A stretch of DNA of 64,000 bases from a virus. Location: positions 1 through 64,000 of the IMG/VR virus record IMGVR_UViG_3300020045_009879. One strand, given 5' to 3'. Made by a program: the position numbers and the translations under genes. Under the pieces are notes generated by a model. It had not been told where the DNA came from. It saw only the letters and a program-made list of their open reading frames with translations, and searched no databases. Shown here in pieces: positions 11,035 to 32,998 of the stretch (position 1 is the stretch's first letter; every line of letters begins with the position of its first letter).

Positions 11035-11505
11035 ATGGCAATAAAAAGAATCTACACCGATGGCAGTTGTCTCCAGAATCCAGGTCCAGGAGGATATGCA
11101 TTAATTATAGTAAAAGATGATGAAGTTCTAGAAATCAAGCAGTCATACTCACCACACACTACAAATAACCAGATGGAACTTTTAGCAATTAGGGATGCTA
11201 TAATATATTGTATTAATAAAAATATATCTGAATGTAAGATATACAGTGATTCACAATATTCAGTATTTGGAATTAATCAGTGGATGCATAAATGGATAAA
11301 AAATAGATGGAAAGGAAGTAAACATACCGTTATTGCCAATGTAGAGATATGGCAAGAGGTATATTCCTTATGGGAAAATGCTAAACAAAAACTCAATATA
11401 TCAGTCCATTATATTAAGGGTCACGCAGATAATAAATTTAATAATCTTGCCGATAAAAAAGCAAGAGAAATAATACATTCTTATGATACAAATCAAAAGA
11501 AATAA
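11035..11505 (+). CDS. rnhA: ribonuclease HI
   Basis: YTDGSC..NPGPGG, TNNQMEL, SDSQY, KGHA..N..AD catalytic motifs. Confidence 0.95.
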   Translation: MAIKRIYTDGSCLQNPGPGGYALIIVKDDEVLEIKQSYSPHTTNNQMELLAIRDAIIYCINKNISECKIYSDSQYSVFGINQWMHKWIKNRWKGSKHTVIANVEIWQEVYSLWENAKQKLNISVHYIKGHADNKFNNLADKKAREIIHSYDTNQKK

Positions 11506-12463
11506 ATTTTTAACAAAGATAATCAATAATGAACAAATATCATCAATTCCAACGAAAGCTTTCGATGAAATAACCGGAGTTGGTAATCTTGAATATGCAA
11601 AAGAGTTTATTCGAGATAAAGATCTTATAATGAGTGAAATTAAAGCACTAGAAAATTACAGACTCACGAGAGCCATTACGCCAAATACACATGCCCCTAA
11701 TAAAATACTAATTGATGATAAAGAAATATCATTTAAAAAACTTCTTGAATCGTGGGATTTAACATATGATATATTATGTTCTGCAATTAAAAACGCAACA
11801 CTTCTTACCATAAACAACGAGATACAATGCGATAATTACGAGTATATTGACTGTATTAATAAAATTGCAAATTCATATATACAGAGAAATATACCATTTG
11901 AACCAAAAAAATCTAGTTTGAAGCTTATGTTTATTAACAGATCTATTGTAAATAATTCAAAATATATTGGCCTTAGCGGAACACGAATACTCACTACGTC
12001 TTTAACATTTGTAGCACCTAAAAATAGTTTTCATGATGACAGAGAAAGTATAAATATTTATAACCCAGATGAAAAAACAATAGAAAATCTTATTGACACA
12101 ACAGATAAGATATATTTTAGTTTTTCATTATTTTACAACGACGAAGAATGGTATTTCCAAGAATTATCAAGAGAATCAATAGAAAGGATATTATCCAAAT
12201 GCCGAGAATTCGCACAACAAATATCATCAAATCCTCCAAACTCAATAATGGCATCAGGAATATTCCAAATACTATGGTATCAATCCGTCGAAGGATTAAA
12301 GTCGGGCACAATAGTTCTACAAGACATTTGGGGACACAAAAAGAGATTTGCCGTAAAAGATTTAATCCCCAAACCCAAATACCTGTTGCAACAATACATG
12401 GGAAAATACCTCTCAACGAAGACTTCGAAATGGAGGGAAGATGTCAGCAATTACATACTTTAA
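11483..12463 (+). CDS. hypothetical protein (326 aa)
   Basis: Long ORF; short motif shared with the next two genes. Confidence 0.8.
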   Translation: MIQIKRNKFLTKIINNEQISSIPTKAFDEITGVGNLEYAKEFIRDKDLIMSEIKALENYRLTRAITPNTHAPNKILIDDKEISFKKLLESWDLTYDILCSAIKNATLLTINNEIQCDNYEYIDCINKIANSYIQRNIPFEPKKSSLKLMFINRSIVNNSKYIGLSGTRILTTSLTFVAPKNSFHDDRESINIYNPDEKTIENLIDTTDKIYFSFSLFYNDEEWYFQELSRESIERILSKCREFAQQISSNPPNSIMASGIFQILWYQSVEGLKSGTIVLQDIWGHKKRFAVKDLIPKPKYLLQQYMGKYLSTKTSKWREDVSNYIL

Positions 12464-12472
12464 AAAAAATGA

Positions 12473-13534
12473 ATGATGAGTACAGATTTTCCCAATACTG
12501 GAGCAAAAATACAGTATGACCTAATATATTCTGAAGAACAGCTTAGTGAGATTATTCATTTGTTAAGTCTACTAGCAAAAAAATATTCGTGGAATATAAA
12601 TATAACAGATACAATACGCTGGGCTTTAAATTATGGATTAAAGCATCCATATGGAATAATATATTGGTGTCATCTTAATCCAGTTAAAAAATCCATAATG
12701 TTTAGTCCCAGAAATATTGTTAAAAACTCATGTGTTGGATCATGCTCCTCGCCAGCCATTTTGACTTTGTGTGCAGAATTATATATTATTAATGGATGCA
12801 GCCCTGATGAATTTGTTAAATACACTTCAAATATGGTAAAGGAACTTGTTCCAGAGCTAACAACAAATAATAATTTCATTAGCAATAATTATATATCTCA
12901 AATCTATAGTCAACCAATACGATATTCCCATGAAAATAAAATTGATTTATTAAGTAAAATAGATTTATCAATAGAATATCTCTATGTAACCGGAGACAAA
13001 GAGACAATACTTACTATTTTAGGATTTAATACTTCGATTAAAAAAAAGACTACTGAAGGCGTATTAGCAAAAAAAGCGTATATAGAAGAACTTCTTGGGT
13101 GTAATTTTGAAGAATTTTGTAAACTAGTACCAAACGAAACATTTAATACTAATGATTTACCAAAAGATTATATTCCTGAGCATTATTTTACCAATAGAAT
13201 TGCTATAGGAGGACATGTATTTGAATGGGAAGCATTTAAACAGCACACCGATATGGATATTAGATTGTTTGACTCAATGTTAAAAAAAGTTAATCATTCT
13301 ATACACATATCTAGAAATTCTAATACATTATTCCAACTTAATAATGGAGTATGGAATTGTTACAAATATACCAAACCATCAGACGACGATATACGTAAAA
13401 ACACAATAGACAGAACCCTAGCATATAGTGTAAAAATCATTAGAATACAGCAAGACAAAGTGGAAATAAAAAGTTATAATATCTTAAAAGAAGGATTAAC
13501 AATAAAAATAGAAGAAAATGAAAAATTTAATTAA
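12473..13534 (+). CDS. hypothetical protein (353 aa)
   Basis: Long ORF. Confidence 0.8.
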   Translation: MMSTDFPNTGAKIQYDLIYSEEQLSEIIHLLSLLAKKYSWNINITDTIRWALNYGLKHPYGIIYWCHLNPVKKSIMFSPRNIVKNSCVGSCSSPAILTLCAELYIINGCSPDEFVKYTSNMVKELVPELTTNNNFISNNYISQIYSQPIRYSHENKIDLLSKIDLSIEYLYVTGDKETILTILGFNTSIKKKTTEGVLAKKAYIEELLGCNFEEFCKLVPNETFNTNDLPKDYIPEHYFTNRIAIGGHVFEWEAFKQHTDMDIRLFDSMLKKVNHSIHISRNSNTLFQLNNGVWNCYKYTKPSDDDIRKNTIDRTLAYSVKIIRIQQDKVEIKSYNILKEGLTIKIEENEKFN

Positions 13535-14552
13535 ATTTAACGGAACAGCAACAAAGTCAATAAAAGACTTCTTTATTGTAAAACACCAATATTCTATTGG
13601 AAAGGATTTAATAACAACCGGAGGCAATTCAGATAAATATGCAATTATTGACCCCGAATCAAAAAGCATTTCGCTGTTCAATAGGGTAAATACAGAAAAA
13701 ATTAAGGGGGTTAAGATTGATATTTTTTCAATAAATATTACCGATGCTTTTCTGAGATTCTTTTATGATTTCATTAATAATGATAAAAATTTCAATATAA
13801 ACACCCTTACCATATTAGAAAAATCTTATATAGATATCATATCTTATTCCACATCTGCATCAAATAAAAATACCTATAACTTAGAAAATTGGCATCAACT
13901 GACAATATGTGGTAGTCTAATCACCGAAGACATAAGTATTCCAATGGGTAAGACACCAATAATGCCTAATGATGGTAGACTTAATGGGTCATGTGCACTA
14001 GCAATAATGGAGTTAAACTATTCATTTTGCGAACCAAACTCATTACATTCAAGGGATATGTTTGCAGACGTAAGTATTTACACTTCAAAAATGCTAAGCG
14101 AATTTCTCTTTGCCTCTCCATCCACTTTGATAAAACATTTTGCCGACGATAATCTTAGCAATGCTATTTTGCAAGAATTAGTAAATCCAGCATTTGATAA
14201 AACCATTAAGAAACTAAGAAAAGAAAATGAGAACATTATCATAATAGGCATTCTTGCGGAAAATGGCGAGACTGTTTGGATTTCAATGGCCACCATGCTT
14301 GAATATATGGATATGACAGAAGAAATATTCAACAGATGTCTAGATAATATCAAAGACAAAAAAACGGCCGCATCATACAATATTATTGGACTTGAAAATT
14401 TTCAGACCACGGAGGTAAAATACATGAAAATGTATTTGGAAAAGTCAAATTATTTGTATAACTTTACAAACATATTAAACTTTAAAGAACCATGTTATAA
14501 TGAGGATACAAAAAAATACGAGGAATTAGAAGATTATGACCTTAACTTCTAA
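13518..14552 (+). CDS. hypothetical protein (344 aa)
   Basis: Long ORF. Confidence 0.8.
   Translation: MKNLIKFNGTATKSIKDFFIVKHQYSIGKDLITTGGNSDKYAIIDPESKSISLFNRVNTEKIKGVKIDIFSINITDAFLRFFYDFINNDKNFNINTLTILEKSYIDIISYSTSASNKNTYNLENWHQLTICGSLITEDISIPMGKTPIMPNDGRLNGSCALAIMELNYSFCEPNSLHSRDMFADVSIYTSKMLSEFLFASPSTLIKHFADDNLSNAILQELVNPAFDKTIKKLRKENENIIIIGILAENGETVWISMATMLEYMDMTEEIFNRCLDNIKDKKTAASYNIIGLENFQTTEVKYMKMYLEKSNYLYNFTNILNFKEPCYNEDTKKYEELEDYDLNF
14435..14466 (+). promoter_or_regulatory. putative Bacteroidota sigma70-type promoter for the replication genes
   Basis: TTTG-N20-TAACTTTA (consensus TTTG-N19-21-TAnnTTTG, one mismatch), 70 nt before 14536. Confidence 0.45.
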
Positions 14553-15117
14553 AATTGATTTCAACAAAATAATTTCACTTGGGTTATCAAAACAACTCAC
14601 ACTTGATGAGACGATGCATTTGGCATTTATTGATGGTATGTTTAAACCCATACACCTTGATCTAAGAATGTCAATTGTATCTTCTCTTCAAGAGAAGGGA
14701 TTAATAGTACATGATAAAGAGGACGGTCGTATCACTATGACGACCAGGGGAGGAAATATTTTTAAATCAACAAAGAAAGATAACTCCTTTCTTGCAAAAA
14801 CCCTTAGGGAATTATTTCCACCAGGTCTAAAAGATGATAAATGGCCATGGAGATCTACTAACGTACAGATTCGAGATAAGCTGGATAAATTTATGGCATT
14901 ATATCCAGAAGCAGAGGATGAGCAAATTATCAGTGCCACTAAAAATTATCTCAGCAAGATGCATGATAATGAGCGAGGAATGTCTTTACTACAGTATTTC
15001 ATACTAAAAAATACAGATGACGGACAGAAAAGCATTCTCGCTGAATATATAGATGTTGAGAAAGACTTTAAAAAAAATCCTTACACTACACAATCAAGTA
15101 ATATAACACAAATATGA
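14536..15117 (+). CDS. putative replication initiator / helicase loader (winged-helix-like N-terminus)
   Basis: SLQEKGLI...ITMTTRG wHTH-like pattern; LRELFP...W...KF...I..AT..Y C-domain; precedes DnaB. Confidence 0.5.
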   Translation: MTLTSKIDFNKIISLGLSKQLTLDETMHLAFIDGMFKPIHLDLRMSIVSSLQEKGLIVHDKEDGRITMTTRGGNIFKSTKKDNSFLAKTLRELFPPGLKDDKWPWRSTNVQIRDKLDKFMALYPEAEDEQIISATKNYLSKMHDNERGMSLLQYFILKNTDDGQKSILAEYIDVEKDFKKNPYTTQSSNITQI

Positions 15118-15311
15118 GCATTAGACAAGAACGAAAGGCGAAAAGAGCCTCAAAGAAAGATAGCAATGGTATGACTATGGATCTATCCAGACCGGTAAGA
15201 AGAGCAATGCAAAGGTTACAGCGTGCCATAAATGATTACCATGCTACGGGTGGAAAAAATCCACAAAGTGATCAAACATATACTTTGCCAGGATCAGAAA
15301 ATTATCATTGA
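15114..15311 (+). CDS. small basic hypothetical protein
   Basis: ORF. Confidence 0.6.
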   Translation: MSIRQERKAKRASKKDSNGMTMDLSRPVRRAMQRLQRAINDYHATGGKNPQSDQTYTLPGSENYH

Positions 15312-15313
15312 TT

Positions 15314-15595
15314 ATGCTTGAAAGACCAATTAATGATTGTTTTGCACATGAAAATATATTACTACAGGTAATTGAGCGTCCAGTTTATAATCCAGAGATT
15401 GATATTGGCGTTCTAGTAGATACACAGGGCAAGCGTACGCAAATAACAAAGGAGAATTATAATGCCTGCTATAAGTGTTTTTATTTTAAAAAATCCTATT
15501 GTAAGACACTTCCAATACGAGGAGAATGTTCAGACCGCAACCGCATTGACGAGAAAAAAGTAATCTTTATACAGATAGCCAATGAGCCTTTATGA
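15314..15595 (+). CDS. small Cys-rich protein, family A
   Basis: CYKCFY...C...RGEC...R.DEK.VIF. Confidence 0.7.
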   Translation: MLERPINDCFAHENILLQVIERPVYNPEIDIGVLVDTQGKRTQITKENYNACYKCFYFKKSYCKTLPIRGECSDRNRIDEKKVIFIQIANEPL

Positions 15596-16718
15596 AAGAA
15601 CAATAAAGAAGATCAGAGAAAACAAGGCCAAAAGACTTAGTGGAGAGATTATCGCACTACCATGGCATGGATTGCCTAGGCTAAGCAGAATTTTGGCAGG
15701 CATTGAGCCAGAAAAGATTACGATTATTACATCTGGTCCGAAGGCGGGCAAATCACAGATTACCAATTACTTGTATTTATTTCAACCGATAGATTATCTT
15801 TTTGAACATCCTGATTGTAATCTTAACATTAAAATATTCTATTTCTCTCTAGAGATCTCCCAAGAATCATTAATGCGACAGGCTATATCATATCGTTTAT
15901 TTGCCAAGTATGGAGTAACAATATCTCCGCAAAAGTTAATGTCTATCTTTCAGAATTATATTCTCGACGATTATATTGATGGATTAATAGACAAAGAAAG
16001 GCCATGGCTTGATTTTCTAGAACAACACCTTGATATACAGGAAAGTATCAGAAATGGAACTGGCATTTATATGTATATAAAAAGCTGGTATGAAGCTAAC
16101 GGCACGTGGATTTACAAAGACGTTATCTATAATGGAAAAGTAGAAACAGTAAAAGATTATTACATACCCAATAATTCAAATCTTATAGTTACAGCAATCA
16201 TCGACCACATTTCTCTCCTTGCACAGGAGAGATCGGAGGGCTCCATGCTTACACTTCATCAATCTATAGGTAAGTTCTCATCAGAATACTGCTTAAGACT
16301 TAGGGATAAGTATAAAATGTGTTTAGTACTAGTGCAACAGCAAGCATTAACATCTGAACAACAACAGTTTACAAGTTCTGGAAAATCTATTATTGAGAAA
16401 TTAAAACCATCCCCGGATGGATTGGGTACAAATAAAGAAACCTCGAGGGATTGCAATCTAATGCTAGGCCTATTTAATCCCTATAAATACGATTTTAAAA
16501 CGTATAAGGCAAAAGATGATACAGGATATGATCTTACAAGGCTACAGGATAATCACAGAGAACTGCTTATATTACTCAATAGAGATGGCATAAGTTCTGC
16601 GGCTATTGATTTAGTCTTCAATGGTGCATGTAGTTATTTCCAGGAACTCCCTAAGCCAGAGGATATTCAGGAAACAGATTATTTAGCAGTCGAGGATATG
16701 CGAAAAAATGTAATTTAA
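15582..16718 (+). CDS. dnaB: DnaB-like (SF4) replicative helicase
   Basis: Walker A SGPKAGKS, FSLE, IDHISLL, LVQQQ, LLNRDG. Confidence 0.88.
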   Translation: MSLYERTIKKIRENKAKRLSGEIIALPWHGLPRLSRILAGIEPEKITIITSGPKAGKSQITNYLYLFQPIDYLFEHPDCNLNIKIFYFSLEISQESLMRQAISYRLFAKYGVTISPQKLMSIFQNYILDDYIDGLIDKERPWLDFLEQHLDIQESIRNGTGIYMYIKSWYEANGTWIYKDVIYNGKVETVKDYYIPNNSNLIVTAIIDHISLLAQERSEGSMLTLHQSIGKFSSEYCLRLRDKYKMCLVLVQQQALTSEQQQFTSSGKSIIEKLKPSPDGLGTNKETSRDCNLMLGLFNPYKYDFKTYKAKDDTGYDLTRLQDNHRELLILLNRDGISSAAIDLVFNGACSYFQELPKPEDIQETDYLAVEDMRKNVI

Positions 16719-16727
16719 TAATTTAAT

Positions 16728-17456
16728 ATGAGTATAATTTTACCAACAGAAAAAGTAAAAGCAACAACAGTAAATCCTGCAATGATGATTCTGGCAGGCT
16801 TCCATAAGAGCGGCAAAAGTCTGAGTCTCAGTCTGTTAGATGACAATTTGATCATAGATACCGAGATGGGGTGTCGCTACTTGGATGCAATGAAAGTTGA
16901 GGTTAATGGTATCAGGGATTTTAACGATGTAGTCGTAGCATTGCGTGCTGGCGGCATCCATCATCGTTTTATCACCATTGATACAGGAACAAAACTTGAG
17001 GATATAGCACAGGAATTAGCTCTGATAAACTACAAAAAGAGCCCCATAGGCAGACGATTTGAGGGTGGCTCTAAAGATATTCAAAATTTAGCTAATGGCC
17101 TCGGATATGGGCTTATAAGGACAGCCTATATGGATCTATTAGAGTGGATAAAGCCATTTTGCGATACATTAATTGTAGTCTGTCATGTTAAGAACTCTTC
17201 TTTCACTAAAGATGGGGAAGAAATTTCTATGATTGACATCAGTCTGACGGGCCAACTCAAAACTATTTTAGCTGCACGTGCTGATGCCGTAGGCGTACTT
17301 TATCGCAAGAAAAATCAGTCTATCCTTTCATTTAAGGGCGGAGAATCTTTCTTAGTAGAAGCACGACCAGAACATCTTAGGGGTAAAGAATTTGTAGTCC
17401 TTGAATCTGATGAGAATAATATAGTAACAGCGAATTGGTCACAGATTTTTATTTAA
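16728..17456 (+). CDS. AAA_24/Sak4-like P-loop ATPase
   Basis: GFHKSGKS, LIIDTE, ITIDT, GLGYG, LIVVCH, ADAVG. Confidence 0.85.
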   Translation: MSIILPTEKVKATTVNPAMMILAGFHKSGKSLSLSLLDDNLIIDTEMGCRYLDAMKVEVNGIRDFNDVVVALRAGGIHHRFITIDTGTKLEDIAQELALINYKKSPIGRRFEGGSKDIQNLANGLGYGLIRTAYMDLLEWIKPFCDTLIVVCHVKNSSFTKDGEEISMIDISLTGQLKTILAARADAVGVLYRKKNQSILSFKGGESFLVEARPEHLRGKEFVVLESDENNIVTANWSQIFI

Positions 17457-17504
17457 ACAACACACAACCACACAGAAAATTAGTAACTTTTAAATTTTAA
17501 TTAT

Positions 17505-18254
17505 ATGAGTTTTTCTACAGAAGGCGTTAAAACAGAGGAAGGTGTAAGCAAATATCTAACGTACGGGATTAATTATTGCAAGATCACTGGCATAACGGTC
17601 ATCAAAGCCAAAAGCACAGACTCCAAAAAGATTCAATTTCAAATGGAGGGTGCTCCTATGGGAAAAGAATTCGAAGGTATTGATGGTGCTAAAGGCAAAG
17701 TTGGCCGTATCGAAACCAGCTATATGTCCAAAGATGAGGCATATAAAGACTTCATGCGTCAGATTGGCGTTATGGCTGATAAGTTAGATGTAAGAGTAGC
17801 CGTTGACGCAGTAAAAGCATTCACTATTGAGGATTATATCACAGCAGTAGAACCGCTACTTAAGGGCAAATTTGCCTGGTGGATGTTTGGCGGAGAAGAG
17901 TATTCTGAAAGAAAATGGAAGATGCTTCTTCTTAAATGGGGATTTATCAAATCAGAAAAAGAAATAGATCCTTCAACATTAAAAATGGATGGATTTATTG
18001 GTGTAGAAATACGGAATACATCAAATATTGTAGCTTTACATTTCGACAAGACTAATCATTTCCATTTCAATCCATTTGTTAAATCTGAAGATGGTTTTGC
18101 ATTACCAGGAGCATTAGCAGTGGCTAGTGGACTTAATCTACCGTCAACATCATCACAAGTGGACGATTTACCTTTTGGTATTCCCAGTAATAAGCCCAGT
18201 AAACTTCCATTCGAAGAAGATGGACCAACAGATGGATTACCCTTTGATAAATAA
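17505..18254 (+). CDS. putative single-stranded DNA-binding protein
   Basis: Position after the Sak4-like ATPase; acidic tail with DDLPF, SKLPF, DGLPF. Confidence 0.65.
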   Translation: MSFSTEGVKTEEGVSKYLTYGINYCKITGITVIKAKSTDSKKIQFQMEGAPMGKEFEGIDGAKGKVGRIETSYMSKDEAYKDFMRQIGVMADKLDVRVAVDAVKAFTIEDYITAVEPLLKGKFAWWMFGGEEYSERKWKMLLLKWGFIKSEKEIDPSTLKMDGFIGVEIRNTSNIVALHFDKTNHFHFNPFVKSEDGFALPGALAVASGLNLPSTSSQVDDLPFGIPSNKPSKLPFEEDGPTDGLPFDK

Positions 18255-18256
18255 TC

Positions 18257-19279
18257 ATGATATTCAAAACATTTTATCCGGTAAGCAGAAAATTGCTTTT
18301 GGATAGTGTTTCTGAATTAGACATTTTCAAACATTTTTGTCCCAATTTCAATAGAGTAGGAGAGCATTTTGTCTCTCCTATTTTAATTGATGGAAGGCCC
18401 AACAAAGGACAGAAGGCTGCCAGGATATTATTTACGGGAAAAAGATTCATCTTACATGATTTTAGAGCAGGACAAAGCTTTGGCGCCATAGAATTTGCCT
18501 CAATAATGACGGGTTTTTCCATAGAAGACACCATTAAATATCTATGTGATCTATTTGGAATTACTGAAGGTACGTTCTTTGATCGCAAATTAACCCCTAA
18601 GCTTATAAATAAAGAAGAACTTGAAAATGCTACGCAACAACAGCGATCAATTAATATTGATGTAAAATATACTCCATGGACAAGAGAATCCCTTCTCTAT
18701 TGGTATCAATTTGGATGGCTACCTTATATGCTCGATTTAGCCACAATTAGACCCGTAAGTAACTTTTGGATACGAATGGGCAATGAGTATAAATCAAGCT
18801 ATAATTCGGCCTATTTAGGGGGTCTATCGTTCTCTTATGACTTCGGAGAGCATGATGGAGTATTCAGAAGAAAAATCTATAATCCACTTACAGAAATTAA
18901 AGAATTAAAATGGAAGAACAATTCAACGAAGGAGATAATACAGGGATTAAATACAATAGATTGCCATTTAGATACTTTCTATCTTACATCATCATTAAAG
19001 GATTGCGGCGTATTCTGGAGACTAAAAGGTTATCCATGCGCTGGGGCTCCTAATTCAGAAAGTACAACATTATCGCCTGCACAAATAAGACGCATTAGAC
19101 AAATATCTGAGAGGCAGATGATATACTTTGATAATGATGCCGTAGGTATTCAACAGGCTAAAAAACAATCCAATCTATACGGATTTGAATGGCAATGCAA
19201 TCCAATTTATAGCCCAAAGGATCCGGCAGATTATACAAAAGAACGAGGATTAACAGAATTTAATAAATTAATATTATAA
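18257..19279 (+). CDS. crAss-type DNA primase (TOPRIM)
   Basis: TSSLKD, APNSE, YFDND..G, KDPADY. Confidence 0.85.
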   Translation: MIFKTFYPVSRKLLLDSVSELDIFKHFCPNFNRVGEHFVSPILIDGRPNKGQKAARILFTGKRFILHDFRAGQSFGAIEFASIMTGFSIEDTIKYLCDLFGITEGTFFDRKLTPKLINKEELENATQQQRSINIDVKYTPWTRESLLYWYQFGWLPYMLDLATIRPVSNFWIRMGNEYKSSYNSAYLGGLSFSYDFGEHDGVFRRKIYNPLTEIKELKWKNNSTKEIIQGLNTIDCHLDTFYLTSSLKDCGVFWRLKGYPCAGAPNSESTTLSPAQIRRIRQISERQMIYFDNDAVGIQQAKKQSNLYGFEWQCNPIYSPKDPADYTKERGLTEFNKLIL

Positions 19280-20219: not shown

Positions 20220-20239
20220 AAACACTTTAAATACACATA

Positions 20240-20515
20240 ATGGAAAATATTGAAGATAAAATTAAACAAGCCGCTATAAAATTTGCCAAAGAAGATGATT
20301 CCTTGGGATTGGAAAATTGTTCTAGATGGGAATTTATTTCTGGGATTAAATCTCCTGAAGCTAAAAAATATTGGCAACAAGGGATGTATACAGAGGAAAG
20401 GGTAGTAAACTTACTACATAAGTTTAAAACAACTATACTTGAGAGTATAGGATATACATATACTCCACAATTATCTACCACTAAGGATTGGTTTAATAGA
20501 AATAAAAAGAAATAA
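20240..20515 (+). CDS. hypothetical protein
   Basis: ORF; MYTEE.V..LL...WF motif. Confidence 0.7.
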   Translation: MENIEDKIKQAAIKFAKEDDSLGLENCSRWEFISGIKSPEAKKYWQQGMYTEERVVNLLHKFKTTILESIGYTYTPQLSTTKDWFNRNKKK

Positions 20516-20516
20516 C

Positions 20517-22524: not shown

Positions 22525-23291
22525 AAAATTGGACATCAAGAATGCTTCTGGGGTCAGACCCGGAGGCATTTATTGTAAATACACGGACTGGACAGGTAGT
22601 ATCATCTAAAAGATTTACAGATGGTACAAAAGATAAACCTGAAGAACTTGTCGGGGGATACGCATTACTCAATGATAATATTTTAATCGAGGGTAATGTT
22701 CCCCCGGCAAGTACAAGAGAAGAATTCATAGCAAATATGACACAGTTACACACATTTATGAGCGAAAGAGCAGAGAAGCGATTGGCTCATCTAGAAAATC
22801 ATGACTGTAGAGAAATAAACGCGGAACTAATGATGACCGATGAGGCTAAGGAGTTTGGATGTTCATCATTTAGAGATGCATGGAATGGGCTCATAGAGAT
22901 AGAAACGCCACAGTTAAACAATAACTCACGACCTGCAGGTTGTCATATTCATATAGGTATTGAAGATCTGACTGATTATGAAAGACAAGCAATAGTCAGG
23001 GCATTTGATATATTTGTTACGCTTCCATCTATTGCAATTACCGGACAATCATATAGAACAGCAAATCTATACGGATTGCTAGGCGCATGCCGATTAAAAA
23101 TTTACGGCGTAGAGGCAAGATCTCTTGGTGGACATTTCTTCCAGCCTAAATACTTTGGTTGGATTTATGATCTTACATTTCTTGCGGTAGATTATGCTTT
23201 TAAGAATACAGAAAGAATTAATGATTTTCCCAATATCACAACATTGATTGGGACTGAAAGGCAACGAATTATTAAATCACTTCAAATATAA
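22521..23291 (+). CDS. phiEco32-like COOH-NH2 ligase (glutamine synthetase-like fold)
   Basis: LGSDPE.F, DN..IE.N.PPA, FGC, R.AG.HIHIG, YG..G..R.K.YGVE.RSL. Confidence 0.9.
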   Translation: MKNWTSRMLLGSDPEAFIVNTRTGQVVSSKRFTDGTKDKPEELVGGYALLNDNILIEGNVPPASTREEFIANMTQLHTFMSERAEKRLAHLENHDCREINAELMMTDEAKEFGCSSFRDAWNGLIEIETPQLNNNSRPAGCHIHIGIEDLTDYERQAIVRAFDIFVTLPSIAITGQSYRTANLYGLLGACRLKIYGVEARSLGGHFFQPKYFGWIYDLTFLAVDYAFKNTERINDFPNITTLIGTERQRIIKSLQI

Positions 23292-23295
23292 ATAC

Positions 23296-26237: not shown

Positions 26238-27733
26238 TAACATGGGATAATAAAGTTGAAGATAAAGAACAATGTGTATTCATAAGAGGTGCATTTTACC
26301 ACAAAGAGCGAGACTGCCATTATCATGATGGCATTTATTATTCTCCATTTAGCAGATATTATGTTGTAGATCACAATACTAAGACAAGAGTGTTTAATCT
26401 TGATGGCAAGTTAAAATATGGTATTGTTGATCGTAGGCATGGGGAATTTATCTTTGGATATTATTCTCCAAATATTTCAACCAACGGAGGCATAATAATT
26501 TCTGCAGAACAATCTGAAGCCCTACTGAAAGAAATTGCAATATCAAGGAATCCTCAGAATAATTATATCGATATTCTATCAAGATTATCAACAAATTATG
26601 ATTATGCCGGAGAATGTGGTGTTGCTCCTGGAATTACGGAGATAGGATGTATGGATGTTCATGCCTTACTGAAGGATGGATATATTCAAGTGCCATCATC
26701 GGATTCTATAGTGCATAACAAAGATGCTAGTAAATGTAGTATATCAATGAAAAAATCTGCATTACTTCAATATGACTTTGCTCTTGCATATAATTCTGAG
26801 ACCATGATGGAATTATTCCAATCACATTTCAACAAACATCCATTACCAATCTCAAAAATAGAAGAAGAATTAGCGGATATAATTGGTGATCATACTTTCG
26901 GCATAGAATATGAGTCGTGGGACGGCAGATTACCAACATATGAAGCGGCACAAAATGGATTAATCCCACTAAGAGATGGAAGCCTTAGGCATGATAAAGT
27001 ATGTGGGTACGAATATGCTACAGTAATAATGCGTGGATGTAATGGTATAGCGGCAATTAAAAGTCAGTGTAATGCGCTTAAGACATTTACAACATTTAAC
27101 GAAAAATGCTCTATGCATATCCATATTGGAAATATTGATAAGACACCAGAAAATTTGATAAAACTGTGGAATGCGTTTTATACTATTCAGAAGGATATTT
27201 TCAAGATGTTCCCAGCATGTTTGGCTAATACATCTACCTATAAACAAAAAGATTACTGTAGTATGCTACCAAATATTTCTCCATTAACGAAAGACTCTAT
27301 TGTGGAGTTTCTAAGCGGTGGACGAGACCGATTCAATAAATTTGGAGGCAAGCATCCATTAGACCCATCAAACCAATCTAAATGGAATGTCCCTAGCCGA
27401 TACGTATTTTGTAACTTCAATAATTTTTATTATACCGATAGGGGAACAATAGAATTGAGGATTTCTACCCCGACATTTAATTATAATAAGATAACTGCAT
27501 TACTTATTATCTTTGCAACAATTATTAATGAGGCATTAAATGGAAATATTCATGAAACTGTGGAATCAGTAATTGACACAATTAGAAACGTAAGAATAAA
27601 ATCCTGGCTTTTAAACTATTGTATCCACAGAAAAACAGTATTAAATCAATATAAAATGGTCGAAAACGGAGTAATTTATTATGAAAATATTTCAAACGAT
27701 GCAAGCAATGGAAATGAGTCAGAATTATACTGA
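26225..27733 (+). CDS. putative amidoligase (Amidoligase_2-like COOH-NH2 ligase)
   Basis: FGIEYE, DGSL, GYEYAT, CSMHIHIG, RY..CN, TIELR. Confidence 0.88.
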   Translation: MAKIVTWDNKVEDKEQCVFIRGAFYHKERDCHYHDGIYYSPFSRYYVVDHNTKTRVFNLDGKLKYGIVDRRHGEFIFGYYSPNISTNGGIIISAEQSEALLKEIAISRNPQNNYIDILSRLSTNYDYAGECGVAPGITEIGCMDVHALLKDGYIQVPSSDSIVHNKDASKCSISMKKSALLQYDFALAYNSETMMELFQSHFNKHPLPISKIEEELADIIGDHTFGIEYESWDGRLPTYEAAQNGLIPLRDGSLRHDKVCGYEYATVIMRGCNGIAAIKSQCNALKTFTTFNEKCSMHIHIGNIDKTPENLIKLWNAFYTIQKDIFKMFPACLANTSTYKQKDYCSMLPNISPLTKDSIVEFLSGGRDRFNKFGGKHPLDPSNQSKWNVPSRYVFCNFNNFYYTDRGTIELRISTPTFNYNKITALLIIFATIINEALNGNIHETVESVIDTIRNVRIKSWLLNYCIHRKTVLNQYKMVENGVIYYENISNDASNGNESELY

Positions 27734-28439: not shown

Positions 28440-29497
28440 TAGAAAAGGATCAATTATTAACATTGCAATCTTTTAGTCTGGAAGAAGAATATCGTGCAAG
28501 TAGCAGTTTAAACTACTCACTACTTAAAGATCTTGTTAATGGTCCAAAGGCATTAGCAGAGGAGCGGTCGTTAAGACCCTCCTCTGCTTTGCAAATTGGA
28601 TCGTTTGTTGATATGTATTATACCAATAGAGAAAGGCTGTATGATGTATTCAGTGTAGATAAGCCAAAGATAAAACTGTCTGATTCATTTGAACAGGTAT
28701 ATAATCATTTTGCAAATATTAAGCAATGGAATCCTACGCCAGAAGAAATTGTCTCTGTATGCAAAGCACTTGGATTGTTTACTAAGATGAGCGATGACGT
28801 TGTAACAGAGAGAATTCCGCCTGGTTTATTGAAAAAATTGGATAATGCACAAAAGACAGAGGGAAAAGTATTACTATCACCAGAGGATAATTCAAAATGT
28901 TTTCAAGCAATAGATAATATTGATTCCTGCCCAGAGGCCACTGATTTAATTACAGAAGGAGAAAACGAAGTCATACTCCATCAATTTAAATTGGAATTTC
29001 CACTCACTTTAGACTCTGGCAAAATAAGAACGTTTAAAGTTATGTTGGATTTTATTAAGTTAAAATTTGATACACTAGAAATGTTTGGCATGGATCTTAA
29101 AACTGGAACACGAGCATCACATAAATTCTATGATCAATTTGTAGAATACAGATATGATATACAGGGGATACTCTATTATTTAGGATTATTGGCTCTTAGG
29201 ATGATGATACGCGAACGATTTGGTGTTGAATTTAATAAGCCCACGTCTCATAATTTTAAGTTCTTATATAGCCCTAAAATGCAATCTAAACTACCTATTA
29301 TAGTTCCCATGGATGATAATTGGATTAGATTAAATGGTGGAGAATATTTTGAACATAAAGGCGTACGTTACCCAGGATTCTGGAAACTTGTTAATGATGC
29401 AGATTGGTATATTAACAACCAAGAATTTTCCAATCATAGAATTGTTGCAGAGAAGAGGGAATACAATATTTCACAACTTTCAGGTTTAATTATATGA
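28436..29497 (+). CDS. PD-(D/E)XK exonuclease (RecE/ExoVIII, DUF3799-like)
   Basis: YSLLK, GSFVD, K..LD, DLKT, YRYDIQ..LY. Confidence 0.8.
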   Translation: MIEKDQLLTLQSFSLEEEYRASSSLNYSLLKDLVNGPKALAEERSLRPSSALQIGSFVDMYYTNRERLYDVFSVDKPKIKLSDSFEQVYNHFANIKQWNPTPEEIVSVCKALGLFTKMSDDVVTERIPPGLLKKLDNAQKTEGKVLLSPEDNSKCFQAIDNIDSCPEATDLITEGENEVILHQFKLEFPLTLDSGKIRTFKVMLDFIKLKFDTLEMFGMDLKTGTRASHKFYDQFVEYRYDIQGILYYLGLLALRMMIRERFGVEFNKPTSHNFKFLYSPKMQSKLPIIVPMDDNWIRLNGGEYFEHKGVRYPGFWKLVNDADWYINNQEFSNHRIVAEKREYNISQLSGLII

Positions 29498-30456
29498 ATT
29501 TACAAAATTTAAAATATACATATGAGATATTAGATAATGTCTTCGAAAAAAATATTGCCTTTTCCCTTGGCGGTTATTATTCTTTAGTAAAACAAAACAT
29601 ACTGGAAGAATTTCGTCCAATAAATGATATAGATGTAAATATAATTATTGATAAAGGGGCATCAATGGAATTAATACAAGATAGAATTGTAAATTTCTTT
29701 CATGATTTTACTGCATTTCAAAGAAATTCTAATAATGATTATATCTTAAGGCTAAACACGGAACCGGAAAGAAATTATTATAAAAAAAGATCAAAACAGA
29801 TTCAACAAGATCCAGAAATAGAATCAGATGTATGTTTTTCTATATCATTAACAGCAAAAAGTATAAAAGACTATCTTGATGAACAAAAAAAGGTAAAAGT
29901 TGTTTCCTGGGATACACCGTATTATTTATCATCAAGTGCTACATATTATCCATCAGCAGAATGGACAGAAAGCCCACAATCAGCAGTCAGTAGTTCACGA
30001 TTAAGTTCTCCAAGTTTTTATTGGAGTGGAACCAATAATCCATATGAATTTCCAATTGGAACAACTAAAAAGATTAAAGAAAAAGAAGATCCAAGGGTGT
30101 TTGTATCACATCATGCATTTAATGATTTTATAAAAAAGCAAATGTTTGATAAATTAATTGACTTGGTGTTATCTAGCAACAATGAGTTAACAATAGACTT
30201 TTTTCTTATGGAACATGATCCTAAACATAATCAAGTATTTGTTATAGAAAAGGAAAACTATACAGCATATTATCCAATACTAAAAGCTAAATACAAATAT
30301 TGTACAGAAAAGTTTACCCCAGAAAAGTCCTTTAAAAAACATATTCTAGATCTAAGTCTTTCTTTTAATGCAAAGAGAATTAGGGGGTTGAATTATCCAG
30401 AAGATATCGAATTATTAATTAAGAATTGGGAGGAAATGCATGAGAAAGATAAATAG
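29494..30456 (+). CDS. Pol beta-superfamily nucleotidyltransferase
   Basis: LGG..SL..Q...RP.NDIDV and distal IDFF. Confidence 0.65.
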   Translation: MNLQNLKYTYEILDNVFEKNIAFSLGGYYSLVKQNILEEFRPINDIDVNIIIDKGASMELIQDRIVNFFHDFTAFQRNSNNDYILRLNTEPERNYYKKRSKQIQQDPEIESDVCFSISLTAKSIKDYLDEQKKVKVVSWDTPYYLSSSATYYPSAEWTESPQSAVSSSRLSSPSFYWSGTNNPYEFPIGTTKKIKEKEDPRVFVSHHAFNDFIKKQMFDKLIDLVLSSNNELTIDFFLMEHDPKHNQVFVIEKENYTAYYPILKAKYKYCTEKFTPEKSFKKHILDLSLSFNAKRIRGLNYPEDIELLIKNWEEMHEKDK

Positions 30457-30922
30457 GTCAATGTATTACTTACTACCACTTGTTAGGGGATGGTCAGCTT
30501 TGGCTGAACCCCCTATCAATACATTTGCGCGTGGTGGGCATAAGAATTCATTGATATTACAATATTCAAGGGGATCAATACCTATGGGTGGTGAAAAGAT
30601 AGCAGAAGATGAAGAACATCAATATTTTCAATGTCCAATAGATAAAGAATACTTAGAAGATTATTCCCTATTAATAAACGGAGAATACAGCAAGATAAAG
30701 GACGATACAAAAAATATCCTAATATCTAGAGCTTCTGCATTAACTGATTCTCGCAGAATTGAAAAGGTACTCTATAAATCAAAGCGCCTTAGAAAACAAT
30801 TGGAAGACACCTTGGGCATAAATGATATTGATGCCATTGCAGATGAATATGATAGTAAAATGTACGATGAAGAACTTTTAAAAATTGATTATGATAAAAG
30901 TGAAAAAAGCACTGAGGTTTAA
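30440..30922 (+). CDS. conserved crAss-like hypothetical protein
   Basis: YYLLPL...DY.L.I.GEYSKI...K motif. Confidence 0.7.
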   Translation: MRKINRSMYYLLPLVRGWSALAEPPINTFARGGHKNSLILQYSRGSIPMGGEKIAEDEEHQYFQCPIDKEYLEDYSLLINGEYSKIKDDTKNILISRASALTDSRRIEKVLYKSKRLRKQLEDTLGINDIDAIADEYDSKMYDEELLKIDYDKSEKSTEV

Positions 30923-31184
30923 TGAAGGAAAGTTAGATTGGACATTGCTGGACTATCCATCATTAGTCCCTCTGGTAGAAGCAATGACTAAAGGAGCAGA
31001 GAAATATGAAAGGTTTAACTGGCAGTTACCATGCGATGATCCAAGGCAACATTTACAATCTGCAATGCGACATTTGATTGCAATTATTAGTGGAGAAGAA
31101 ATTGATAAAGAGAGTGGCGTAAGGCATGTCGGTCATTTAATGGCTAATGCAATGATGTATGTTTTTCATACTAAAGAAACTTAA
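30891..31184 (+). CDS. dATP/dGTP diphosphohydrolase domain protein (DUF5664-like)
   Basis: RFNEGK..W.LL, GAEKY..NW, SAMRHL, D.ESG..H..H...NAM. Confidence 0.85.
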   Translation: MIKVKKALRFNEGKLDWTLLDYPSLVPLVEAMTKGAEKYERFNWQLPCDDPRQHLQSAMRHLIAIISGEEIDKESGVRHVGHLMANAMMYVFHTKET

Positions 31185-31820: not shown

Positions 31821-32231
31821 ATGCCAGTAAAAAAGATTATCTATGATGGAATTAAGTTTGACAGTGCATTAGAATGCAACTGTTACAAAGCACTTATAGC
31901 CGCAGGAATTACTTTTGACCATCACACAAAGCATGAAATATTTCCAGGATTTATCTCTTCAATTACATCATTTGATAAAGATGAACGCAAGGGAAAAGAC
32001 ATGTATCTTTCCTCTGAAAAATTCGGAAGTCTCTCATATACTCCTGATTACCAGGCTAAAGACTATTCGTGGTTCATAGAAACAAAGGGTTTTCTGCGGC
32101 CTGAGGCTGCCATGCGGATAAAACTATTTAAAATGAAACTTACGCAAGAAGGAAGTACGGCGCATTATTTTATGCCAAGAAATAAAAAACACATTGATCA
32201 AACTATTGAAATAATTAAAACGTTACAATGA
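31821..32231 (+). CDS. T7 endonuclease I-like PD-(D/E)XK nuclease / resolvase
   Basis: GIKFDS.LE, YTPDY, IETKG. Confidence 0.82.
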   Translation: MPVKKIIYDGIKFDSALECNCYKALIAAGITFDHHTKHEIFPGFISSITSFDKDERKGKDMYLSSEKFGSLSYTPDYQAKDYSWFIETKGFLRPEAAMRIKLFKMKLTQEGSTAHYFMPRNKKHIDQTIEIIKTLQ

Positions 32232-32998
32232 GAGAGGAAATAAGAGAGATATTTTATCAAAGAGCCAAGTTGTTACAGAATTTAGATAAGATAGTATCTG
32301 CCGGACATAAGGCTGCCAATAAGAGTAAAAATCAAATGTCTCTCTTTGCAGAGGATGAATCGTATTCTGATATCATATTAGAAGAGCCAAAAGACTTTAA
32401 TCCATTTGAATTTGTTGAAATGGAAAAAGATACCATAGGATTTTCATTAACATATTCTGAGTATGAGAGATATGAAATGTTAAATTGCAGATATTGTAAT
32501 AGCACTTTAGAAAAGGTCTTCGGGGTAGAATTTGAAGGTAATAAAACATTTCTTGCTAAGTTGGTAGACATACAACATAAAACCAGTGGATTTGGCAATC
32601 CTTTTGCAAAATTAATATTTGCTTATGATGGAACAAAAACTAAGATGTATTTATTTGGAGATCTATATAGAAAGAATCTGGTAAAATGCTTTATCAATAG
32701 AATATATTTGATTACTGCCACACACAATATCGAACGTAATTCCCTTGATTTAGTTAATTTTATGCCAGCAGACGATGTCTCTGATCTAAATATTAAAGTC
32801 ATATGGGTCTCTGTACCACTAAGTAAATTGGCACTGCTAAAGACTTATTTATATGTGCATATGAAAGGCGACAATTTTCCTATAAATATACACGTCTCAG
32901 ATAAAAACTTTACCTATATGGAAGTATTAAGATGTAATATTAATAATGAAAATCTTGTAGAATTAAGAAAGCAGGGAATAACAATAAAATTAAGATAA
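32228..32998 (+). CDS. stand-alone DNA polymerase III alpha (DnaE) C-terminal fragment: clamp-binding motif, OB fold and CTD; no catalytic domain
   Basis: RA.LL..LD...G.K...QMSLF...EK..IG..L...Y...CN; OB-like TS..G.PFA.L...LFG.LY. Confidence 0.78.
   Translation: MREEIREIFYQRAKLLQNLDKIVSAGHKAANKSKNQMSLFAEDESYSDIILEEPKDFNPFEFVEMEKDTIGFSLTYSEYERYEMLNCRYCNSTLEKVFGVEFEGNKTFLAKLVDIQHKTSGFGNPFAKLIFAYDGTKTKMYLFGDLYRKNLVKCFINRIYLITATHNIERNSLDLVNFMPADDVSDLNIKVIWVSVPLSKLALLKTYLYVHMKGDNFPINIHVSDKNFTYMEVLRCNINNENLVELRKQGITIKLR

What the first reader, a model, noticed from the sequence alone, without database searches (positions are those of the whole stretch)
32228..32998. Stand-alone non-catalytic DnaE C-terminal module (QMSLF clamp motif, OB fold, tau-binding region)
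Seen: a 256-aa ORF with its own ATG, coupled to an unrelated nuclease gene, resembling the last ~250 aa of Bacteroidota DnaE: QMSLF, EKxxIGxxL, YCN, an OB-like segment and a CTD. No PHP or palm domain is encoded anywhere in the window and there is no intein signature. Established: this region of Pol III alpha binds the beta clamp, ssDNA and tau (DnaX). Inference: a captured replisome-interface protein acting either as a dominant-negative decoy that stalls host replication or as an adaptor redirecting host clamp and clamp loader to the phage helicase/primase.
Basis: partly seen in the sequence, partly recalled or inferred. Interest (0 to 1): 0.8.

Follow-up and report, generated by a model that had tools for sequence, protein, structure and literature searches.

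The report
Stand-alone DnaE tail in polymerase-less crAss-like phage
A crAss-like phage that encodes no DNA polymerase of its own carries a small, conserved gene copying only the non-catalytic tail of the bacterial replicative polymerase (sliding-clamp hook, DNA-binding barrel, clamp-loader-binding domain), most likely to plug the host replication machine into phage replication.

Summary
Window 32228-32998 (+) is a 256-aa ORF that is homologous to the last ~250 residues of Pol III alpha (DnaE). A family profile hits E. coli DnaE 894-1090 (E 5.8e-8) and full-length DnaEs (9.5e-14). The AF2 model (pLDDT 87) aligns with Taq alpha 948-1199 over residues 10-256.

It belongs to a new family with no Pfam or PHROG match: about 54 clusters at 50% identity, nearly all ~255 aa and stand-alone.

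The phage is a ~96-kb Crassvirales genome. This genome and four relatives carrying the gene, two of them complete with terminal repeats, encode no PHP, palm, finger or HhH part of DnaE and no PolA or PolB. PolA-bearing crAss-like phages lack the gene.

The clamp motif (Q-L/M-S/D-L-F) is the best-conserved segment. The tau-binding-like domain is the least conserved and is missing in a 227-aa subfamily.

Best reading (inferred): a non-catalytic alpha-tail mimic that docks on the host beta clamp, and in long forms on tau, at phage forks. The decoy reading remains open. No special likeness to Bacteroidota DnaE was seen, and nuclease coupling is not conserved.

The parts
32228..32998 (+). 256-aa stand-alone homologue of the DnaE (Pol III alpha) C-terminal module, whole gene including stop
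   Evidence: ORF. Profile, hhalign and local HMM matches to DnaE ~885-1125. Fold match to Taq and Mtb DnaE.
32228..32326 (+). Residues 1-33: two N-terminal helices equivalent to the helix pair that follows the HhH beta-binding domain in DnaE. Carries invariant R12 and conserved N18.
   Evidence: DSSP H3-17 and H19-33. Alignment with E. coli DnaE from residue 894. Conservation.
32330..32347 (+). Residues 35-40, NQMSLF: canonical beta-clamp-binding pentapeptide (Q-L/M-S/D-L-F) in a flexible loop
   Evidence: Q36, L39 and F40 are conserved in 93-98% of 45 family members, and this is the most conserved segment (2.80 bits). pLDDT is 51-60 for residues 31-50. It aligns with the internal clamp motif of DnaE. 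It is the only strict match among all G000 ORFs.
32402..32518 (+). Residues 59-97: helical linker with invariant E66 and G71 (E-x-x-x-L/I-G, the DnaE 'E.E.LG' motif), Y76 and C90
32519..32782 (+). Residues 98-185: OB fold with the conserved S-x-x-G-N-x-Y/F-A-K loop
   Evidence: Strands E105-180. VIA and Foldseek OB matches, including DnaE, PolC, RPA and PriB. Conservation of S120, G123, N124, F/Y126 and K128.
32783..32995 (+). Residues 186-256: beta-alpha-beta-beta-alpha-beta C-terminal domain, aligned with the C-terminal (tau-binding) domain of Taq alpha. Least conserved part, and missing in the 227-aa subfamily.
   Evidence: secondary structure. (4iqj_D 948-1199 to model 10-256). (1.48 bits). 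(short forms).
31821..32231 (+). Upstream DUF1064 / resolvase-like nuclease gene, overlapping the target by ATGA. Context only; the coupling is not conserved family-wide.
   Evidence: PF06356 E 1.9e-7 and phrog_190. Overlap. Neighbours in relatives.
11035..19279 (+). Phage replication genes: RNase H, three orphan ORFs, a conserved 193-aa protein, DnaB-like helicase, Sak4-like ATPase, SSB-like protein and primase. No DNA polymerase. This is the context that makes the finding meaningful.

Best explanation
The gene encodes a non-catalytic mimic of the C-terminal 'replisome-interface' module of Pol III alpha. It is kept by a lineage of crAss-like phages that make their own helicase, primase, SSB-like protein and primer-removal nuclease but no DNA polymerase, and that must therefore copy their DNA with the host Pol III holoenzyme.

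Proposed mechanism:
- The exposed Q-M-S-L-F peptide docks in the hydrophobic pocket of the host beta sliding clamp.
- The OB fold holds single-stranded template next to the clamp.
- In the long forms, such as this one, the C-terminal domain occupies a tau (DnaX) subunit the way alpha does.
- The protein thereby ties host clamps and clamp loader, and through them Pol III, to forks driven by the phage helicase and primase.

What is shown: homology and fold, stand-alone state, absence of any DnaE core or other polymerase in complete relatives, and strongest purifying selection on the clamp motif.

What is inferred: clamp, ssDNA and tau binding; any contact with a phage protein; and that the net effect is recruitment rather than inhibition.
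For: Identity:
- Profile, HMM and hhalign matches to DnaE ~885-1125.
- Fold matches to Taq and Mtb DnaE covering residues 10-256.

Stand-alone and selected:
- About 54 clusters at 50% identity, almost all 250-270 aa.
- Invariant R12/E66/G71 and near-invariant Q36/L39/F40.
- The clamp-motif loop is the most conserved segment (2.80 bits against 1.45-2.13 elsewhere), and every variant fits Q-L/M-x-L-F.
- The motif sits in a low-pLDDT loop between helices and occurs only once among all ORFs of G000 and of G001.

The polymerase-less context is real and does not come from a truncated contig:
- The phage is a crAss-like phage.
- G001 (90.8 kb, terminal repeat, collinear with this genome) and G003 (95.7 kb, terminal repeat, CheckV 100%) carry the gene. 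They have no PF07733, PF14579, PF00476 or PF00136 match at E<=1.
- An unfiltered full-length DnaE HMM finds only positions ~880-1088 in four genomes.
- Positive control: the same search finds PolA in crAss-like phages cr106_1 and DAC15, and these lack the family.

Position: the gene sits inside the replication operon in conserved synteny, and does not lie among the early small genes.
Against: - No binding was tested.
- The tau-binding-like domain is the least conserved part and is absent in the short subfamily. Tau capture cannot be universal.
- No phage partner that would make it an adaptor rather than a competitor has been identified.
- A free alpha tail would by itself compete with host alpha for beta and tau. 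The converse free domain, tau C16, is lethal when modestly produced in E. coli (PMC1888804).
- The exclusivity with DNAP rests on only 5 carrier genomes and 2 non-carriers.
Confidence: 0.5

Rival explanations
1. Dominant-negative decoy. The free alpha tail titrates host beta clamps (and tau, in long forms) away from host Pol III and so shuts off host chromosome replication. It has no positive role at phage forks.
For: - The motif matches the optimal clamp-binding consensus rather than the weaker variants many DnaEs carry.
- Free interface domains of Pol III can be toxic: modest production of tau C16 is lethal in E. coli, and suppressor mutants lose alpha binding (PMC1888804).
- Phage proteins that block the host clamp are known (from my own knowledge: Staphylococcus phages Twort and G1).
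Against: - These phages encode no polymerase, so they need the very clamp and clamp loader that a pure inhibitor would disable.
- The gene lies in the replication operon next to helicase, primase and recombination genes, not in the early host-takeover region.
- Retention of a whole OB fold with a conserved loop is more than a clamp-blocking peptide would need.
Confidence: 0.22
2. Accessory subunit of a cryptic phage polymerase. The catalytic part would be encoded elsewhere, as a very divergent split DnaE or an unknown polymerase family, and this protein would supply its clamp-binding and OB modules in trans.
For: - Three orphan ORFs of 326, 353 and 344 aa follow RNase H at 11483-14552. They have a syntenic 254/363/339-aa trio in G001, and their summed size is close to a DnaE core.
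- A Pol-beta-superfamily nucleotidyltransferase-like ORF lies at 29494-30456.
Against: - An unfiltered full-length DnaE HMM finds nothing for positions 1-880 in six-frame translations of four genomes. Pfam PHP, core and HhH models also find nothing.
- The orphan trio shows almost no sequence conservation between G000 and G001 (best E 7e-4 over 105 aa), whereas helicase and primase are 56-60% identical. An essential polymerase would not drift like that.
- I saw no HxH or DxD catalytic motifs when reading their sequences, and they have no PDB, Pfam or PHROG hits.
- The NTase-like ORF resembles AbiEii, DUF2204 and Gad2-type minimal transferases, not polymerases.
- There is no split-intein signature.
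Confidence: 0.08
3. Clamp-tethered ssDNA-binding accessory for recombination or repair. It would bring the neighbouring DUF1064 nuclease, the exonuclease or the Sak4 system to clamps left on phage DNA, and would not act in fork assembly.
For: - ATGA coupling to the DUF1064 resolvase-like gene here and in G001.
- The exonuclease VIII-like and Sak4-like genes are in the same operon.
- The universally kept parts are the clamp motif plus OB only.
Against: The nuclease adjacency is not conserved. There is an extra ORF and a gap in L020/L021, the upstream neighbour is an HD-like gene in G004, and it is a DnaA-C HTH gene in G003.
Confidence: 0.12
4. Decaying remnant of an ancestral phage dnaE gene, with no function.
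For: DNAP genes are swapped and lost often in Crassvirales (PMC7886860).
Against: - Intact full-length ORFs persist across about 54 clusters down to ~22% identity, with invariant residues and uniform length.
- Synteny is conserved.
Confidence: 0.02

Closest known systems
C-terminal region of bacterial Pol III alpha (DnaE): internal clamp-binding motif, OB fold and tau-binding C-terminal domain (E. coli residues ~890-1160; Taq ~945-1220)
   Same: - Homologous sequence and fold over the whole 256 aa.
- Same order of elements: helix pair, Q-x-S-L-F loop, E-x-E-x-LG linker, OB fold, beta-alpha-beta-beta-alpha-beta domain.
   Different: - No PHP, palm, thumb, fingers or HhH domain on the same polypeptide or anywhere in the genome, so it cannot polymerise.
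- Only 20-35% identical to any DnaE.
- A subfamily has lost the last domain.
Phage P1 HOT, a phage-encoded homologue of the Pol III theta subunit (from my own knowledge, not checked here)
   Same: A phage without its own replicative polymerase encodes a stand-alone homologue of a non-catalytic piece of the host Pol III holoenzyme.
   Different: HOT copies a whole small accessory subunit that binds epsilon. Here a fragment of the catalytic subunit itself is copied, the part that contacts clamp, ssDNA and tau.
ImuB, the catalytically dead Y-family polymerase that carries the clamp-binding motif for DnaE2 mutasomes (from my own knowledge; ImuB-C stand-alone proteins are mentioned in PMC12926913)
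   Same: A polymerase-derived, non-catalytic protein whose likely job is to supply a beta-clamp contact to another enzyme.
   Different: Unrelated fold and family. ImuB is bacterial and works in damage tolerance, and its partners are known.
Phage-encoded sliding-clamp binders that block host replication (Staphylococcus phage Twort ORF168 and G1 ORF240; from my own knowledge)
   Same: Small phage proteins aimed at the host DnaN.
   Different: Those are unrelated small inhibitors from phages that have their own polymerase. This protein keeps an OB fold and a tau-domain-like fold, and comes from polymerase-less phages.
Cyanobacterial split DnaE (DnaE-n / DnaE-c joined by a split intein)
   Same: A separately encoded C-terminal piece of DnaE.
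   Different: - From my own knowledge, the split there lies much further upstream, in the catalytic part.
- A C-intein precedes the extein there, and a DnaE-n gene exists. None of this is found here.

Membership tests
C-family DNA polymerase alpha subunit (DnaE) | PHP domain | tested here: not met
   PF02811 is absent from six-frame G000. The full-length DnaE HMM gives no hit to positions 1-880 in G000-G003.
C-family DNA polymerase alpha subunit (DnaE) | Pol-beta-like palm/thumb core (PF07733) with catalytic aspartates | tested here: not met
   No PF07733 match at E<=1 in G000-G004. The local HMM finds nothing either.
C-family DNA polymerase alpha subunit (DnaE) | Fingers and HhH beta-binding domain (PF17657, PF14579) | tested here: not met
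   PF14579 is absent in G000-G004. The ORF starts just after the HHH_6-equivalent position. PF17657 itself was not run; the local DnaE HMM gives no hit to the finger positions.
C-family DNA polymerase alpha subunit (DnaE) | Internal beta-clamp-binding motif after the HhH domain | tested here: met
   NQMSLF aligns with the internal motif of E. coli and other DnaEs. It is 93-98% conserved in the family.
C-family DNA polymerase alpha subunit (DnaE) | OB fold C-terminal to the clamp motif | tested here: met
   AF2 strands 105-180. VIA Z 10-11.8 to the OB folds of DnaE, PolC and RPA.
C-family DNA polymerase alpha subunit (DnaE) | C-terminal tau-binding domain | tested here: inconclusive
   The fold aligns with Taq alpha up to residue 1199. 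However, sequence conservation is the lowest of all regions, the domain is missing in short forms, and tau binding is untested.
Beta-clamp-binding proteins carrying the QL[SD]LF-type pentapeptide | Motif matching the consensus, conserved among orthologues, in an exposed flexible segment | tested here: met
   Motif variants. pLDDT 51-60 in the loop. Unique occurrence in the proteome.
Beta-clamp-binding proteins carrying the QL[SD]LF-type pentapeptide | Physical binding to DnaN | not testable with these tools
Split-intein DnaE-c | N-terminal C-intein segment and a partner DnaE-n gene | tested here: not met
   The family N-termini align directly with DnaE ~885-894 with no extra segment. No DnaE-n is present.
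Crassvirales (the phage as a whole) | crAss-type portal, major capsid protein and terminase, plus a block of giant virion proteins | tested here: met
   phrog_6547, phrog_11589 and phrog_6681. Portal 47-49% identical to Steigviridae and other crAss-like phages. ORFs of 2609, 1422, 1413 and 1386 aa.

The most novel reading that the evidence does not exclude
A whole lineage of crAss-like phages has replaced its own DNA polymerase with a 'plug' made from the tail of Pol III alpha. The plug occupies one clamp pocket and, in long forms, one tau arm of the host holoenzyme, and it also contacts the phage helicase or primase. The host replicase is thereby rebuilt around a phage-specified fork. This would be a previously undescribed way for a virus to take over a cellular replisome. 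It would also fit the finding that one relative (G003) additionally carries a stand-alone DnaA C-terminal DNA-binding domain.
Probability: 0.3. Interest if true: 0.85.

Novelty: new variant of a known kind. Interest (0 to 1): 0.66.

Why it matters
How crAss-like phages replicate is unknown ('through an unknown mechanism', PMC10136315). It is also unexplained why their polymerase genes are swapped or lost so often (PMC7886860).

This family gives the polymerase-less lineages a concrete, testable handle: a small soluble protein with a canonical clamp-binding peptide, an OB fold and a tau-domain-like fold.

If it recruits the host Pol III, it defines a new route of replisome hijacking and a marker gene for host-polymerase-dependent Crassvirales. 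If it is a decoy, it is a natural high-affinity binder of clamp and tau that could serve as a probe of the Bacteroidota replisome.

Either way it is an unannotated family. It has no Pfam or PHROG model, and one JGI record calls it 'DNA polymerase III alpha subunit', which could mislead annotation into crediting these phages with a polymerase.

Tried and rejected
**Searches that found nothing**
- Single-sequence searches of the ORF against Pfam, PHROGs and PDB.
- tblastn of this protein and three distant family members against 50,697 GenBank phage records. The only hit was one weak match in an unannotated 15.6-kb faecal contig. No cultured or annotated phage carries the family at BLAST sensitivity.
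- The search for related loci: nothing with the full alignment (no conserved stretch) or with the single protein. Sub-alignments gave 4 viral and 4 metagenome loci. Two other sub-alignments and the bacterial genome collection gave none, so no host clue was obtained.

**Hidden-polymerase hunt**
- The three orphan ORFs at 11483-14552 have no PDB, Pfam or PHROG hit.
- The ESM Atlas model of the 353-aa ORF was too poor to use.
- They are not paralogues of each other and are barely alignable with their syntenic counterparts in G001.
- They were rejected as a conserved polymerase, but their function stays unknown.
- The NTase-motif ORF at 29494-30456 was considered as a minimal polymerase and rejected. 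Its Atlas neighbours are AbiEii, DUF2204 and Gad2-type transferases with weak TM scores.

**Control that needed a second family**
- The PolB search as a positive control on cr106_1 and DAC15 found nothing because these phages carry PolA. The PolA control worked.

I had intended to test the protein against the phage helicase and primase.

**Left unused**
- The second structure-prediction job, because no unknown ORF had an alignment deep enough to give a useful model.
Full report
**1. The observation**

The ORF exists as described: window 32228..32998, + strand, 256 aa, ATG start.
- Its ATG overlaps the TGA of the upstream 136-aa gene (ATGA). The next gene starts one base after its TAA, so it sits in a tightly packed operon.

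**2. Is the resemblance to DnaE real?**

Searches with the single sequence against Pfam, PHROGs and PDB sequences find nothing. The claim therefore needed more sensitive tests, and all of them agree.
- An exhaustive phmmer search over 1.84 billion representatives found 54 relatives. Nearly all are 250-270 aa. Two hits, P0056 and P0058, are contig-truncated pieces of genuine DnaE (finger + HHH_6 + OB by Pfam). They match the query precisely downstream of the HHH_6 domain.
- A profile of 45 family members (A1) hits E. coli DnaE 894-1090 at E 5.8e-8 and Thermus aquaticus DnaE 945-1101 at 6e-5 among all PDB sequences. The clamp motif, the E-x-E-x-LG linker and the OB fold are in register.
- The same profile, searched among longer proteins in a 5.8-billion-sequence collection, returns only full-length DnaEs with the complete PHP/core/finger/HhH/OB architecture. 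The best E is 9.5e-14.
- hhalign places the family on residues 885-1125 of a 1176-aa DnaE with 97.6% probability.
- A full-length DnaE HMM that I built from 24 of those sequences hits the window ORF at E 2e-9, on HMM positions 887-1085 of 1155.

Structure gives the same answer.
- The AlphaFold2 model has mean pLDDT 87. It shows two N-terminal helices, a flexible loop with the clamp motif (pLDDT 51-60), a helical linker, a five-stranded OB barrel and a final beta-alpha-beta-beta-alpha-beta domain.
- Foldseek's six best PDB hits are all Taq Pol III alpha, over about 257 columns, E down to 3e-8.
- VIA-align gives M. tuberculosis DnaE1 919-1099 as the top hit (Z 11.8). It aligns Taq alpha 948-1199 with model residues 10-256 (220 residues, Z 9.6). 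Generic OB proteins match only residues ~80-185.

In detail: this is a homologue of the whole C-terminal module of DnaE and of nothing else.

**3. What kind of genome is this, and is a DnaE N-terminal half hiding somewhere?**

The window is the first 64 kb of a 95,871-bp virus record.
- Major capsid protein, portal and large terminase match crAss-type PHROGs.
- The portal is 47-49% identical to Steigviridae and other Crassvirales.
- The minus-strand block of 1386-, 2609-, 1422- and 1413-aa proteins is the crAss hallmark.

CheckV's '64% complete' is probably an underestimate. A collinear relative, G001, is 90,772 bp and has a terminal repeat. By my comparison of ORF coordinates, this record seems to lack at most a few kb next to the terminase.

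The plus-strand block encodes the following:
- RNase H;
- three orphan ORFs;
- a conserved 193-aa protein;
- a DnaB-like helicase;
- a Sak4-like ATPase;
- an SSB-like protein;
- a primase;
- a peptide-ligase cassette;
- an exonuclease VIII-like nuclease;
- a nucleotidyltransferase-like protein;
- a MazZ-like diphosphohydrolase;
- an HD-like protein;
- the DUF1064 nuclease;
- the DnaE-tail gene;
- a metallophosphoesterase.

Six-frame searches for polymerase parts gave these results.

| Search | Genomes | Result |
|---|---|---|
| DnaE core (PF07733) | G000-G004 | no match at E<=1 |
| PHP (PF02811) | G000 | no match |
| HhH (PF14579) | G000-G004 | no match at E<=1 |
| PolA (PF00476) | G000-G004 | no match at E<=1 |
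| PolB (PF00136) | G000-G004 | no match at E<=1 |
| PolA, positive control | cr106_1, DAC15 | ~795-aa PolA found |
| Family A1 | cr106_1, DAC15 | absent |

G001 and G003 have terminal repeats, and CheckV rates G003 as 100% complete.

The unfiltered DnaE HMM, run against every stop-to-stop frame of 40 aa or more in four genomes, detects only the tail genes. For positions 1-880 nothing scores better than E 3.

The lineage has no recognisable polymerase at all. This agrees with an earlier unchecked note of this scan (e1-6007004). [quoted passage not shown]

**4. Could a cryptic polymerase exist?**

The three ORFs after RNase H (326, 353 and 344 aa; 11483-14552) have a summed size close to a DnaE core and a syntenic trio in G001 (254, 363 and 339 aa). 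I looked at them closely.
- They have no hits in Pfam, PHROGs or PDB.
- I saw no HxH or DxD motifs when reading the sequences.
- The Atlas model is unusable.
- They are almost unalignable with their G001 counterparts (best E 7e-4 over 105 aa). Helicase, Sak4 and primase are 56-67% identical between the same two genomes.

An essential polymerase would not evolve this way, so I reject them as a conserved catalytic subunit. Their function stays unknown.

The 320-aa ORF at 29494-30456 carries a GG...DIDV nucleotidyltransferase motif. Its Atlas neighbours are AbiEii, DUF2204, aminoglycoside-NTase and Gad2-type minimal transferases at weak TM scores, not polymerases.

**5. Anatomy of the family**

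The family alignment has R12, E66 and G71 invariant. Q36, L39, F40, Y76, C90 and G123 are at 90% or more.

| Region | Conservation (bits) |
|---|---|
| Clamp-motif loop | 2.80 |
| Helical linker | 2.13 |
| N-terminal helices | 2.00 |
| OB fold | 1.89 |
| C-terminal domain | 1.48 |
| Acidic spacer | 1.45 |

(All values.)

- The 24 motif variants seen (GQMSLF, GQLSLF, NQLSLF, GQLDLF and others) nearly all fit Q-L/M-x-L-F; a few depart at a single position.
- A strict Q[LM][SD][LM]F pattern occurs exactly once among all ORFs of this genome and once in G001, in this protein each time.
- The OB fold keeps an S-x-x-G-N-x-Y/F-A-K loop.
- A subfamily of ~227 aa (alignment A3) includes the copy in the complete genome G003. 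It keeps the helices, a GQLTLF motif and the OB fold, but ends about 37 residues after the barrel and so lacks the last domain.
- The universal core is therefore clamp motif plus OB. The tau-domain-like part is an optional addition.

**6. Context in relatives**

The gene always lies near the 3' end of the replication operon, a few kb before the convergent giant-protein block. Its upstream neighbour varies:
- the DUF1064 nuclease, ATGA-coupled, in this genome and in G001;
- the same nuclease separated by a 91-aa ORF in L020/L021;
- an HD-like gene in G004;
- a stand-alone DnaA C-terminal HTH gene plus a 74-aa ORF in G003.

Coupling to the nuclease is therefore local, not a family trait.

**7. 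Origin**

The family is only 20-35% identical to any cellular DnaE. The best-scoring full-length cluster belongs to Candidatus Poribacteria. That ranking depends on word sharing and is not a phylogeny.

**8. Mechanism**

Established knowledge:
- The internal Q-x-x-L-F motif of alpha binds the beta clamp, and the OB fold binds ssDNA (from my own knowledge).
- Alpha binds tau domain V with a Kd of about 260 pM (PMC1888804).
- That the contact site on alpha is its C-terminal domain is from my own knowledge.

Given a phage that supplies helicase, primase, SSB-like protein and primer removal but no polymerase, the host Pol III holoenzyme must do the synthesis.

The most economical reading is that this protein is the phage's handle on that holoenzyme. 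It docks on beta through the motif, with the OB fold on the adjacent template. In long forms it also occupies a tau arm. I give this recruiting or organising role about 0.5.

The same properties would make a free tail a competitor of host alpha. The converse free domain, tau C16, is lethal when modestly produced in E. coli. A pure decoy therefore remains a serious rival (0.22). It fits poorly with a phage that needs the same clamp and clamp loader, and with the gene's place in the replication operon.

The other rivals are:
- a clamp-tethered accessory for recombination nucleases (0.12);
- a subunit of a cryptic polymerase (0.08);
- a decaying remnant (0.02, contradicted by the conservation).

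None of the binding steps is shown.

**9. Comparison and novelty**

The protein works like the tail of DnaE but is not a DnaE. Four of the seven defining parts of the alpha subunit were tested and are absent.

Functional analogues, from my own knowledge:
- phage P1 HOT, a phage copy of the theta subunit;
- ImuB, a dead polymerase that supplies a clamp contact;
- the small clamp-blocking proteins of Staphylococcus phages.

I found no description of a stand-alone DnaE C-terminal module in the searchable literature. That includes the two crAss genomics papers, the Crassvirales review, the DNAP-swapping paper and a 2026 survey of bacterial polymerases and their stand-alone homologues.

I rate it a new variant of a known kind: phage proteins that target the host replisome interface.

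**10. Limits**

- The host is unknown.
- The DNAP-exclusivity pattern rests on 5 carrier genomes and 2 non-carriers.

Noticed in passing
window 11483-14552 (+): Three consecutive orphan ORFs (326, 353 and 344 aa) lie between RNase H and the conserved 193-aa/helicase pair. G001 has a syntenic trio (254, 363 and 339 aa), but there is almost no sequence similarity between the two sets. This looks like a fast-evolving cassette of unknown function.
   Followed up: partly
window 17505-18254 (+): The SSB-like 249-aa protein ends in repeated acidic-hydrophobic tips (DDLPF ... LPFEED ... DGLPFDK). These resemble the DDDIPF tail with which bacterial SSB recruits host partners such as the chi subunit. 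It may be a second handle on the host replisome.
   Followed up: no
window 29494-30456 (+): A 320-aa protein with a minimal nucleotidyltransferase motif (GG...DIDV). Its ESM Atlas structural neighbours are AbiEii, DUF2204, aminoglycoside-NTase and Gad2 (anti-Gabija) type proteins at weak TM scores. It is conserved in relatives and may be an anti-defence enzyme.
   Followed up: partly
window 30885-31184 (+): A 99-aa protein that matches the N-terminal domain of dATP/dGTP diphosphohydrolase (PF18909, E 2e-23), the MazZ type known from phages with modified purines. It is 71% identical in G001.
   Followed up: no
window 19833-27733 (+), with 23528-24367: A peptide-ligase cassette: GGACT cyclotransferase, RimK-like ATP-grasp, a 395-aa unknown, a phiEco32-type COOH-NH2 ligase, a class-II glutamine amidotransferase and an amidoligase. 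A free-standing LAGLIDADG endonuclease gene is inserted between two of these genes here but not in G001.
   Followed up: partly
genome 92443-95712 (-), outside the window (L002:12446-15712): The large terminase is 1089 aa here against 742 aa in the collinear relative G001. Residues ~575-930 give separate PHROG matches. This suggests an inserted element such as an intein or an endonuclease domain.
   Followed up: no
L013:9281-9778 (+) in G003, two genes upstream of its DnaE-tail gene: A stand-alone 165-aa protein carrying only the DnaA C-terminal DNA-binding HTH (PF08299, E 1e-7). It is a second host-replication-protein fragment in a polymerase-less crAss-like phage. The same block holds a FEN-like 5'-3' exonuclease, ThiF- and JAB-like genes, DUF932 and an RNA ligase.
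   Followed up: partly
whole record G000 (95,871 bp) compared with G001 (90,772 bp): CheckV rates these genomes 60-64% complete. G001, however, has a 123-bp terminal repeat and is collinear with G000, so completeness is underestimated for this lineage.
   Followed up: partly
protein P0005 (close homologue, 55% identical): One public record names this 256-aa protein 'DNA polymerase III alpha subunit'. That annotation could wrongly credit such phages with a polymerase.
   Followed up: no
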